Shown piece after piece: positions 3,001 to 6,000 of a DNA stretch of 64,000 nt (positions are counted from its first letter, which is position 1; the number at the start of each line of letters is the position of its first letter). Origin of the DNA: Escherichia coli O157:H7 (lineage in GTDB: Bacteria > Pseudomonadota > Gammaproteobacteria > Enterobacterales > Enterobacteriaceae); assembly GCF_013167455.1 (NCBI RefSeq), contig NZ_CP038328.1. One strand, written 5' to 3'. The position numbers are program-made.

Positions 3001-6000
3001 TTTCCAGCGGCTGGGCATCAAGAAGAATCTCCCCTTCCGACGGCGGCTGATGACGGCCAAGCATTTTGAGCAGAGTGGATTTACCAGAACCGTTGTGACC
3101 AATCAGACCGGTCACTTTCCCGGCAGGAAAGGTTAACGACAGCGGATGCAAAAGCGTGCGCCCGGGCACACGAAAGGAGATATTACGCAGTGCAAAAGTG
3201 GTATCGGAATGATTCGTGTATTCCTGCATAACAGCCAACTTGTGAAACAGGCACGGAAATCCGTGCCCCAAAAGAGAAATTAGAAACGGAAGGTTGCGGT
3301 TGCAACGACCTGACGTTCTGCGCCCCAGAAGCAGCCATAAGTGTTAAAGCAGCTGGCGACGTATTCACGATCGAACAGGTTGTTAACATGCAGCGCCACG
3401 TTGGAGCCCGCCATGCCGACTCGCGCCAGATCATAACGCACTAACGCATCCACGACCGTATAACTTCCCACTTTAAAGGAGTTAGCCGGATCACCATAGC
3501 TGGAGCCAGTATAACGACCACCGGTGCCCAGCGTCAGACCTGAAAGCGGACCGTCAAAGAAGGTATAGTCAGCCCACAGCGAAGCCATGTGTTTTGGCAC
3601 CTGTGCAGGCGTATTGCCTTTATAGGTAGTATCGGTGGTGTATTCCGCATCGGTGTAAGTATAAGAACCGACTACGTTAACACTCGCCGACAGCGCCGCT
3701 TTCGCTTCGATTTCTACGCCACGTGCGCGGATCTCGCCACCTTCAACCGAGAAGAAGGAACCCTCAGGGTCCGCCATCAGGTTGTTGGTTTTAGTGAGAT
3801 TATACACGGCACCAGTAACTACAATCGGACGATCTTCCGGTACATATTTCACGCCGACTTCATACTGCTTACCTTTAGACGGTGCGAAAATATTACCATC
3901 CTTCCCAACTTGCGAAGAAGGTTCAAACGATTCGCTATAGCTAAAGTAAGGTGTTACGCCATTATCAAACAGGTAGTTAACACCACCACGCCAGGTAAAC
4001 TGTTTGTCATCACGTTTATCGGTCGTCCCGGCAACGCGGTTAAGAGATTCTTGATCTGCCCAGTCATAACGACCGCCCAGGGTGACCAGCACTTTATCCC
4101 ACTGCGCCTGATCCTGAACATAAACGCCCGTTTGTTTCTGCTTATTCAGAATGCGGTAAGGGCCGGAGTTTGCCGGATCTTTGGCATTGAAGTCGAAATC
4201 GGTATTCACCGGATTGTACAGATCGAGCAGCGGTACGGAGTCGTCGTAACCAAACCAGGCGTTGATGTCATTACGCATACGCATAAAGTCGACACCGGTC
4301 AGCAGGGTGTGGTCGATATCGCCAGTGGCAAACTTGCTCTGCAACTGGGTATCAACGGAGAAGTTTTGCAGCTTCTCATCATCAACGACGTATTTACGTG
4401 CCAGATAATGGCCTTTATCCGCTGGCGCTAATGCCGCACACTGTTTGCTGTAAGCATTCGCCGGATCGGAGCAGACGCCGTAACCATAAACGCTGTTTTG
4501 CGAGGTTTTGTTTTCAGCAAAGCGCAGGTTCTGACGCACAGTAAAGGTGTCGTTAAATTCGTGATCGAAGCTGTAGCCCACCATCTTCTCATTACGAGAA
4601 TAGGTGTTGTTCTTCGCCCCTTCGTTAAAGTCTGTCGGCAGACGCTTACCGTTCGGCAGCGGCTCAACGGTTCCCTCTTTCGGCAACCAGCCGTAATAAC
4701 CGGTTTCCGGCTCGTTCTGGAAGTAAGAAAGGAAGGTGAAATTGGTTTTATCATCCGGACGCCAGGTGAACGCCGGTGCAATAGCATAACGCTGCTCTTC
4801 TGACCCTTTCTGCTGGGCATTGGCAGAACGCGCAAGACCGGTCAGGCGATAAGAGTAAACGCCGTCATCATCCAGCGCATCGCTAAAGTCAAAACCAGTC
4901 TGGAACAGGCTGTCAGTACCGGCTTTAAACTGAACTTCTTTCAGCGGTTCGGTGGTCGGACGCTTGCTGACCATATTCAACAGGCCGCCAGGACTGCTTT
5001 TACCGTAAAGCACGGAAACCGGGCCACGCATAATTTCAGCGCGTTCCAGCATATACGGATCAATGACCGCATCGTTATAGAAGTTGCCCTGCAACTTCAG
5101 GCCATTCAGATAGTTATTCTGGCTTTGGCCTTCTGCCGCAAAACCGCGAATGATCAGGTGGTCATAGGTGTTGGATGCGCCACGCGTACCAACAGAGACA
5201 CCCGGCGTGTAGCTAAGCGCTTCTTTTACCGACTTCGGCTGATGCAGCGCCATCTCTTCGGCGGTCACAACAGAAATAGACTGTGGCACTTTTTGAATCG
5301 GCGTATCGGTTTTAGTGCCGGTAGCTGACTGTCGCGCCGCAATAGTTGCAGCAGGCCCCCATGCGCTTTCTTGCGGCGCAGGTGCAGCGGTAACGGTGAT
5401 AGTGTCTTCTTTCGGTTCAACCGCTGCCTGTGCATAAACAGACATGCCGCTAACCGCTGTGGCTACTACAACTGCGATTTTACGCAGTGAGTGTTTTGGC
5501 TGAGCAGTTTTGGAACGCGCCATTGGTATATCTCTGATGTAAAGTGAATGATAACGTAAACGAGAATGATTATTATAAAGATAAGATAATATTCGAAACT
5601 CTGGCGGGTTCGCAAGCGGTACGCAATCTGAGCGTTCCTGAAGGGTTAATAAACAACCAGATGAAAAGAAAGGGTTAATACTTTGGGTGGGATGTTATTT
5701 TACCGGATGGCAACTCGCCATCCGGTATTTCACGCTTAGATGTTAATTACTACCAAACATATCCTTAATCCAACCGGCTACACCGTCGCTGTCTTTCTGC
5801 TCTTGCTGAGCAGGTTGCTGTTGCGGCTGTTGCTGCGGCTGAGAAGACTGATCAAACGGATTGCCTGACGGCTGCTGCTGCATCTCACTCTGCTGGCACA
5901 GCGATTGCGGATCGCTGGTCCAGACCGGCAAGACACGCATGCCACCGCTGCAAACAAAGTTGCCGTCGTAGTCCACGCCCATATCTGCAATATCTTCTGG

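What the first reader, a model, noticed from the sequence alone, without database searches (positions are those of the whole stretch)
5524..5742. fhuA upstream region with Fur-box-like repeats
Overlapping GATAAT/ATCATT hexamer repeats precede fhuA, consistent with iron repression of the fhuACDB operon. A hairpin (accggatggc...gccatccggt) at ~5703..5733 lies between the fhuA promoter and the mrcB 3' end.
Basis: partly seen in the sequence, partly recalled or inferred. Interest (0 to 1): 0.15.

Follow-up and report, generated by a model that had tools for sequence, protein, structure and literature searches.

The report
Known Fur-repressed fhuA promoter, mrcB hairpin
This is the well-studied control region in front of the E. 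coli ferrichrome-receptor gene fhuA, where the iron sensor Fur binds a row of GATAAT-like repeats over the promoter, plus a stem-loop that caps the upstream mrcB message; both are real but ordinary.

Summary
The window is E. coli O157:H7, identical to strain Sakai here. Positions 5524-5742 are the mrcB-fhuA intergenic region, and both genes lie on the minus strand.

Both observations are confirmed.

1. Fur array. Eight in-phase GATAAT-like hexamers at 5544-5591 form the best hexamer array in the whole 64-kb window. No dinucleotide shuffle of the region reaches its score (0/5000). It covers every proposed fhuA promoter. Its core, 5575-5546, is nearly invariant across seven enterobacterial genera. 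The identical K-12 sequence is a published Fur site (19.5 bits, gel-shift confirmed). Fur ChIP-exo peaks map onto it in K-12 and in Sakai.

2. Hairpin. A perfect 11-bp stem with a 5-nt loop (5701-5727, -20.9 kcal/mol) starts 15 nt after the mrcB stop codon. It has no U-tract on either strand. The 40 nt after it are C-rich and G-poor (12 C, 1 G). Every genus examined has a hairpin at this position, each with a different sequence, and three are canonical terminators. It is most likely the mrcB 3'-end structure, probably the protective stem-loop of a Rho-terminated transcript.

Verdict: already known, low interest.

The parts
5544..5591 (-). Fur operator: an array of eight in-phase GATAAT-like hexamers. 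It contains the best 19-mer (5580-5562) and the 7-1-7 core centred at 5568.
   Evidence: The published Fur cluster is centred at window 5568 (PMC2189734). Fur ChIP-exo peaks map to 5540-5552. Positions 5575-5546 are invariant in 9 sequences from 7 genera except for 2 positions, one of them the N of the 7-1-7 motif.
5586..5615 (-). Sigma-70 promoter candidate TTGCGA-18-TATTAT. The inferred start is about 5579.
   Evidence: Found by the consensus scan. Listed for the mrcB>fhuA spacer in PMC3946193. TTGCNA and TAT(T/C)AT keep the same spacing in all 7 genera.
5565..5577 (-). Alternative promoter assignment: -10 TATAAT at 5577-5572 with a start at 5565.
   Evidence: Back-calculated from the footprint coordinates in PMC6397515, which took its promoter boxes from Huerta & Collado-Vides 2003. 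The first T of this -10 is C in 4 genera.
5545..5559 (-). Proximal HypT site TTACGTTATCATTCA, overlapping the Fur array.
   Evidence: DNase I footprint on the Salmonella fhuA promoter (PMC6397515). The sequence is identical in the window and invariant across genera.
5662..5676 (-). Distal HypT site AACCCTTTCTTTTCA. S. Typhimurium has C at position 8.
   Evidence: PMC6397515 places it at -111..-97, mapped onto the window. It is partly conserved across genera.
5641..5680 (-). Direct repeat TATTAACCCTT, two copies (5680-5670 and 5651-5641) with starts 29 nt apart. The first copy overlaps the distal HypT site; the second has no assigned function.
   Evidence: The intervening CTGGTT and the second TTAA(A/C)CC copy are conserved in most genera.
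5701..5727 (-). mrcB 3'-end stem-loop: UACCGGAUGGC-GAGUU-GCCAUCCGGUA, starting 15 nt after the TAA stop. No U-tract follows on either strand.
   Evidence: Single copy, next to mrcB, in 4849/5426 E. coli genomes. Stem 0/22 variable versus 9/35 outside it. One A-U to G-C compensatory pair in Salmonella.
5661..5700 (-). C-rich, G-poor stretch (12 C, 1 G in 40 nt) just downstream of the hairpin; a candidate Rho-utilisation region.
   Evidence: The 80-nt C-G excess is in the top 2% of the window. The model comes from PMC6061677. This rests on composition only.

Best explanation
The region is the mrcB-fhuA intergenic region of E. coli O157:H7 and holds two unrelated, ordinary elements.

(a) The fhuACDB promoter with its Fur operator. 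When iron is sufficient, Fe2+-Fur dimers bind and spread along the phased GATAAT-like hexamer array at 5544-5591. The array covers the -10 hexamers, the start sites and the early transcribed region of every proposed fhuA promoter. RNA polymerase is therefore excluded and the ferrichrome uptake operon stays off. Iron starvation releases Fur. HypT sites at 5559-5545 and 5676-5662 add HOCl-dependent repression by the looping mechanism proposed for Salmonella.

(b) The stem-loop at 5727-5701 is the 3'-end structure of the mrcB mRNA. It has no U-tract and is followed by C-rich, G-poor RNA. I therefore infer that mrcB transcription is stopped mainly by Rho a little further downstream, and that the transcript is then trimmed back by 3'-5' exonucleases to this protective hairpin.

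Shown: sequence features, conservation, and published Fur and HypT binding on identical or near-identical DNA. Inferred: which promoter is used, the occlusion mechanism, and the Rho plus trimming route for mrcB.
For: Fur:
- The phased array is far above chance.
- The block 5575-5546 is invariant across 7 genera, and one of its two variable positions is the N of the 7-1-7 motif.
- The window differs from K-12 at only five intergenic positions, none in the array, the promoter boxes, the HypT sites or the hairpin. The published K-12 result therefore applies: 19.5 bits, gel shift, centre at -45 = window 5568.
- Fur ChIP-exo peaks under iron-replete conditions map to window 5540-5552 in K-12, W3110 and Sakai.
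- fhuA is derepressed in fur deletion strains, and promoter-lacZ fusions agree.

Promoter: TTGCGA-18-TATTAT.

HypT: DNase I footprints.

Hairpin:
- Strong fold.
- Stem invariant while the loop and flanks vary, Fisher p = 0.009.
- A compensatory pair in Salmonella.
- A hairpin of -18 to -26 kcal/mol sits within about 20 nt of the mrcB stop in all 8 loci. Sequences differ; Citrobacter, Buttiauxella and Enterobacter have canonical U-tracts.
- E. coli genomes with a fimbrial islet at this spot carry a different U-less hairpin in the same position.
- The downstream stretch is C-rich and G-poor, matching the Rho-dependent 3'-end class described in PMC6061677.
Against: - No experimentally mapped fhuA start site could be retrieved. 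Three promoter assignments coexist in the literature.
- The single best Fur consensus match is only 14/19.
- The ChIP-exo peak summit (5540-5552) lies 15-25 nt downstream of the strongest predicted site (5568).
- No Term-seq or other 3'-end data for mrcB were found in the supplements held. The termination mechanism therefore rests on sequence and analogy.
- The hairpin could still act as a weak intrinsic terminator.
Confidence: 0.9

Rival explanations
1. The hairpin is a classical Rho-independent terminator of mrcB that stops RNA polymerase by itself.
For: Its position is right, 15 nt after the stop codon. The stem is GC-rich at -20.9 kcal/mol. Orthologous positions in Citrobacter, Buttiauxella and Enterobacter hold canonical terminators.
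Against: The tail on the mrcB strand is AAAAUAAC, with 1 U in 8. The terminator scan reports nothing here on either strand. U-less hairpins belong to the Rho-dependent class in PMC6061677.
Confidence: 0.2
2. The hairpin terminates or stabilises an antisense (+ strand) transcript that starts in the fhuA promoter region, or it is a REP-like or mobile-element DNA site rather than an mRNA element of mrcB.
For: On the + strand the stem is followed by UUUCAC, with 3 U. A promoter-like match on the + strand lies at 5548-5576. The stem CCGGATG...CATCCGG resembles the REP core (from my own recollection, not tested). The fimbrial islet replaces exactly this segment in about 10% of genomes.
Against: It is single copy in every genome and always next to mrcB, and no other copy occurs in the window. 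So it is not a dispersed repeat. The + strand tail also fails the terminator criteria. The + strand promoter match is expected from the palindromic AT-rich Fur boxes. Conservation of a hairpin by position after mrcB across genera points to an mrcB function.
Confidence: 0.05
3. The AT-rich repeats are just promoter, UP-element or H-NS-type AT-rich DNA, or solely the HypT site, and Fur regulation of fhuA is indirect.
For: The region is AT-rich at 39.7% GC against 51.9% for the window. Single-site consensus matches are modest. HypT footprints overlap 5559-5545.
Against: The 6-nt phased array exceeds all composition-matched shuffles. Direct Fur binding is documented by gel shift and by ChIP-exo in three strains.
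Confidence: 0.03

Closest known systems
E. coli K-12 fhuA (fhuACDB) promoter and Fur box, as analysed by Chen et al. 2007 (PMC2189734), Shultzaberger et al. 2007 (PMC1807945) and Fur ChIP-exo (PMC10164565)
   Same: It is the same locus. The sequence is identical from 5599 to the ATG, and only five substitutions occur in the whole 219-nt region, none in a functional element. The window is identical to O157:H7 Sakai, in which a Fur ChIP-exo peak was mapped.
   Different: Nothing of substance. O157 has A instead of C at 5600, in the promoter spacer, and four changes at 5681-5687.
Salmonella Typhimurium fhuA promoter with two HypT sites about 100 bp apart (Jo et al. 2019, PMC6397515)
   Same: The proximal site is identical. 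The distal site matches 14/15. The spacing relative to the Fur box and promoter is the same.
   Different: HypT binding was footprinted on Salmonella DNA, not on E. coli DNA. The distal site has T where S. Typhimurium has C.
[quoted passage not shown]
   Same: A stable stem-loop right after the ORF, no U-tract, no upstream A-tract requirement, and a C-over-G excess immediately downstream.
   Different: mrcB was not found in the data tables held. Rho dependence and exonuclease trimming are untested for this transcript.
Canonical intrinsic terminators after mrcB in Citrobacter, Buttiauxella and Enterobacter
   Same: Same position after the mrcB stop codon and comparable stem energies.
   Different: Those have U-tracts of 6 or more. 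The E. coli hairpin has none. The sequences are unrelated except between E. coli and Salmonella.

Membership tests
Fur box / Fur operator (E. coli type) | Match to the 19-bp consensus GATAATGATAATCATTATC, or three or more adjacent NAT(A/T)AT hexamers | tested here: met
   14/19 at 5580-5562. Eight phased hexamers score 35/48, 0/5000 shuffles reach this, and it is the top of the window. The published information-theory score is 19.5 bits for the identical K-12 sequence.
Fur box / Fur operator (E. coli type) | Overlaps the promoter or start site of an iron-regulated gene | tested here: met
   The array 5544-5591 covers the -10 TATTAT (5591-5586), the -10 TATAAT (5577-5572), the inferred starts at about 5579 and 5565, and the third predicted -10 at 5553-5548.
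Fur box / Fur operator (E. coli type) | Direct Fur binding in vitro or in vivo | not testable with these tools
   Taken from the literature. Gel shift for the K-12 site (PMC2189734). ChIP-exo peaks in K-12, W3110 and Sakai map to 5540-5552 (PMC10164565).
Fur box / Fur operator (E. coli type) | Conserved in orthologous promoters | tested here: met
   5575-5546 is invariant in 9 sequences from 7 genera apart from 2 positions.
Rho-independent (intrinsic) terminator | GC-rich stem-loop | tested here: met
   11-bp perfect stem, -20.9 kcal/mol, z = -5.1.
Rho-independent (intrinsic) terminator | U-rich tract of 7-8 nt immediately after the stem | tested here: not met
   The tail is AAAAUAAC on the mrcB strand and UUUCACGC on the + strand. 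The scan finds no terminator here.
Protective stem-loop of a Rho-dependent transcript | Stable stem-loop at the 3' end, no U-tract, C>G sequence downstream | tested here: met
   (12 C and 1 G in the next 40 nt). The criteria come from PMC6061677.
Protective stem-loop of a Rho-dependent transcript | Read-through increased by bicyclomycin, and a 3' end mapped at the base of the stem | not testable with these tools
   No mrcB 3'-end entry was found in the supplements held.
REP / dispersed extragenic palindrome | Many copies per genome | tested here: not met
   One place per genome in 4849 genomes. One match in the window with up to 3 mismatches allowed.
Known RNA family (Rfam) | Match at or near the gathering score | tested here: not met
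   Only chance-level hits to eukaryotic and viral families in 5400-5900. No gathering-level hit falls in the region.

The most novel reading that the evidence does not exclude
Two modest possibilities remain open.

(1) The second copy of the TATTAACCCTT direct repeat (5651-5641) starts 29 nt from the copy that overlaps the distal HypT footprint. It could be the partner site that lets the reduced HypT tetramer, or another unidentified regulator, bind upstream of the fhuA promoter. The docking model in PMC6397515 predicts a 25-30 nt spacing for the reduced tetramer.

(2) The mrcB 3' end may be a natural example of evolutionary switching between intrinsic termination (Citrobacter, Buttiauxella, Enterobacter) and Rho-dependent termination with a protective hairpin (E. 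coli). In that case the Rho release zone would overlap the upstream part of the fhuA control region.
Probability: 0.2. Interest if true: 0.25.

Novelty: already known. Interest (0 to 1): 0.07.

Why it matters
It matters little beyond correct annotation. Fur control of fhuACDB is a textbook case of iron regulation, and this window simply contains it. It also records three things: the same 50 bp also serves HypT; three promoter assignments coexist without a retrievable mapped start; and the mrcB stem-loop is not a canonical terminator in E. coli although it is in neighbouring genera.

Tried and rejected
- Plain mismatch counting to the 19-mer and to the 7-1-7 motif over the window did not discriminate. 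GAT/CAT codon repeats in an Asp/His-rich tract of a 617-aa ORF at 42.6 kb scored as well or better. I replaced this with a phased hexamer-array score and composition-matched shuffles.
- I did not build my own Fur weight matrix. No verified site list was retrievable, and the published score applies to the identical sequence.
- The Rfam search of the region gave only chance hits.
- I looked for mrcB 3'-end or fhuA start-site data in Term-seq papers. Nothing was found: files were not held, or had no entry.
- Seo et al. 2014 (PMC4167408) is not held.
- The supplements of PMC2189734 and PMC4676285 are not held.
- A search for 'fhuA promoter' plus 'transcription start' returned only the HypT paper.
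- REP or dispersed-repeat status of the hairpin was rejected because it is single copy.
- Small ORFs in the region (5544-5678 on +, 44 aa; 5466-5615 on -, 49 aa) were not pursued. They overlap the Fur operator and promoter, and the flanking sequence is not conserved as coding across genera.

Full report
**Identity of the region.**
A 501-nt query around the finding matches E. coli O157:H7 chromosomes at 100% identity, and 5424 of 5426 complete E. coli genomes overall, between genes annotated mrcB and fhuA. The window is identical to strain Sakai over NC_002695.2 positions 171500-171900. On the minus strand, ORF 3280-5523 is FhuA (NCBIfam equivalog, 1474 bits). ORF 5743-8292 is PBP1b (MrcB). ORF 2432-3271 is FhuC.

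**Check of the Fur-box observation.**
- On the gene strand, ATCATT occurs at 5570-5565 and 5552-5547, 18 nt apart.
- On the + strand, GATAAT occurs at 5585-5590.
- About 0.1-0.15 of each would be expected per 219 nt.
- The best match to the 19-bp consensus is CTTTATAATAATCATTCTC at 5580-5562, with 14/19.
- The 7-1-7 core TAATAAT-C-ATTCTCG at 5575-5561 matches 11/14.

On their own these single-site matches are modest: 2-3.5% of dinucleotide shuffles of the region do as well. Codon repeats elsewhere in the window score higher.

The real signal is the 6-nt phasing. Eight consecutive hexamers from 5544 to 5591 score 35/48 against GATAAT/ATTATC. Shuffles give 25.7 +/- 1.5, and 0 of 5000 reach 35. 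For arrays of 4 or 5 hexamers this is the top-scoring place in all 64 kb.

**Published evidence on the same sequence.**
The window differs from K-12 at five intergenic positions: 5687, 5685, 5682, 5681 and 5600. None of them lies in the array.
- Chen et al. 2007 report a Fur cluster for K-12 fhuA of three overlapping sites. The strongest scores 19.5 bits, the cluster spans 31 bp, and it is centred at 167439, which is -45 from the ATG or window 5568. It was confirmed by gel shift (PMC2189734). Position 5568 is the centre of the 7-1-7 core found here.
- Shultzaberger et al. give 10.7 and 19.5 bits for two sites overlapping a predicted promoter (PMC1807945).
- The Fur pan-regulon study lists iron-replete ChIP-exo peaks assigned to fhuACDB at 167456-167466 in K-12, 167456-167468 in W3110 and 171778-171790 in Sakai (PMC10164565 supplement). 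These map to window 5540-5552, the promoter-proximal end of the array.
- fhuA is up-regulated in fur deletion strains in that study, and in promoter-lacZ fusions in PMC4676285.

**Conservation.**
I retrieved the mrcB-fhuA spacer from Salmonella, Klebsiella sp., Citrobacter, Lelliottia, Buttiauxella and Enterobacter, using FhuA orthologues of about 90% identity. I aligned these with three E. coli alleles.
- The longest conserved block is 5575-5546, TAATAAT[C/A]ATT[C/A]TCGTTTACGTTATCATTC. It is invariant except at two positions. One of them is 5568, the unconstrained central base of the 7-1-7 motif.
- The hexamers TTGCNA (5615-5610) and TAT(T/C)AT (5591-5586) are also conserved, with an 18-nt spacer throughout.
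- This is the TTGCGA-18-TATTAT promoter found by the scan and listed for this spacer by Shimada et al. (PMC3946193).

**Promoter ambiguity.**
Three assignments exist.
1. TTGCGA-18-TATTAT, with an inferred start at about 5579.
2. TATAAT at 5577-5572 with a start at 5565. I back-calculated this from the footprint coordinates of Jo et al. 2019, who took the boxes from Huerta & Collado-Vides 2003. Its first T is C in four genera.
3. A predicted -10 located 29 nt upstream of the coding region, TATCAT at 5553-5548.

I could not retrieve a mapped start site. The conclusion does not depend on it, because the Fur array covers all three.

**HypT.**
Jo et al. footprinted HypT on the Salmonella fhuA promoter at TTACGTTATCATTCA (+7..+21) and AACCCTTCCTTTTCA (-111..-97) (PMC6397515). 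In the window these are 5559-5545 (identical) and 5676-5662 (one mismatch).

The distal site overlaps the first copy of an exact 11-nt direct repeat, TATTAACCCTT. The copies lie at 5680-5670 and 5651-5641, with starts 29 nt apart. The second copy and the CTGGTT between them are conserved in most genera, and no function is assigned to them.

**The hairpin.**
- The arms are 5701-5711 and 5717-5727: 11 perfect pairs, loop GAGUU, -20.9 kcal/mol, z = -5.1.
- It starts 15 nt after the mrcB TAA stop codon.
- It is not a canonical intrinsic terminator on either strand. The tail is AAAAUAAC on the mrcB strand and UUUCACGC on the + strand, and the scan reports nothing here.
- It is single copy and always next to mrcB, in 4849 of 5426 genomes, so it is not a REP-type repeat.
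- Among seven E. coli alleles the 22 stem positions never vary, while 9 of 35 loop and flank positions do (Fisher p = 0.009).
- The Salmonella hairpin is homologous and carries one A-U to G-C compensatory pair.
- All other genera have an unrelated but equally strong hairpin (-18 to -26 kcal/mol) within about 20 nt of the mrcB stop. Canonical U-tracts follow it in Citrobacter, Buttiauxella and Enterobacter.

**The fimbrial islet.**
About 570 E. coli genomes carry a four-gene chaperone-usher fimbrial cluster between mrcB and fhuA. It replaces 5742 to about 5686, hairpin included. These genomes have a different U-less hairpin, CGCUCUCCGC-UUAU-GCGGAGAGCG, at the same place after mrcB. A hairpin conserved by position but not by sequence points to a function at the mrcB 3' end.

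**Likely mechanism of the hairpin.**
The 40 nt after the stem contain 12 C and 1 G. The 80-nt C-G excess is in the top 2% of the window. Dar & Sorek showed the following for E. coli Rho-dependent transcripts (PMC6061677):
- They end at stable stem-loops without U-tracts.
- C-over-G sequence lies downstream of the stem-loop.
- The 3' ends are produced by PNPase and RNase II trimming.
- Terminators can switch class in evolution by gaining or losing the U-tract.

The mrcB hairpin and its relatives in other genera fit that picture. This step is inferred, because I found no 3'-end mapping for mrcB.

**Verdict.**
Nothing here departs from known biology. The only loose ends are which promoter is used, the unexplained second TTAACCC repeat, and the untested termination mode of mrcB.

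Noticed in passing
window 5686-5742; loci L002-L004 (E. coli strains 4/0 and WL297): In about 570 of 5426 complete E. 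coli genomes, a four-gene chaperone-usher fimbrial cluster (fimbrial protein, chaperone, usher, fimbrial protein) sits between mrcB and fhuA. It replaces the hairpin-containing 57 nt. Homology to the window resumes about 160 nt upstream of the fhuA ATG, so the distal HypT site and TTAACCC repeats are altered while the promoter and Fur array are kept.
   Followed up: partly
window 5641-5651 and 5670-5680 (minus strand): An exact 11-nt direct repeat, TATTAACCCTT, with starts 29 nt apart. The first copy overlaps the footprinted distal HypT site. The second copy and the intervening CTGGTT are conserved across genera and have no assigned function.
   Followed up: partly
window 42600-42660, inside ORF 41697-43550 (+): The best Fur-consensus matches in the window (7-1-7 with 1 mismatch at 42641-42655) lie inside a coding Asp/His-rich tract (DWDDDDHDHHHHDDDNYHHH) of a 617-aa protein. 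They are GAT/CAT codon repeats rather than a promoter element. I did not test whether Fur binds there.
   Followed up: partly
window 5753-5789 and 5335-5366: The K-12 Fur ChIP-exo table lists two further peaks flanking the promoter, at 167218-167254 and 167641-167672. They map inside the mrcB 3' end and the fhuA 5' coding region. They may be shoulders of the main peak or extended Fur spreading.
   Followed up: no
window 49826-49939 (+), 61214-61291 (-), 61694-61763 (-): Rfam gathering-level matches to tp2, naRNA4 (CssrE) and STnc40. These are known small-RNA or REP-derived families unrelated to this finding.
   Followed up: no
FhuA protein (window 3280-5523) against the protein database: FhuA sequences of 89-93% identity to the O157 protein are labelled Salmonella, Klebsiella, Citrobacter, Lelliottia, Buttiauxella and Enterobacter. 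They are as close to it as many sequences labelled E. coli (about 90%). This fits the allelic diversity and inter-genus exchange expected for a phage and colicin receptor gene.
   Followed up: no
locus L006 (Klebsiella sp.) 1072-1500: The mrcB-fhuA spacer is 429 nt here. It contains a long perfect palindrome (CAGATATAAATAAGCCCTCTAATAC...GTATTAGAGGGCTTATTTATATCTG) and REP-like sequences that the other genera lack.
   Followed up: no
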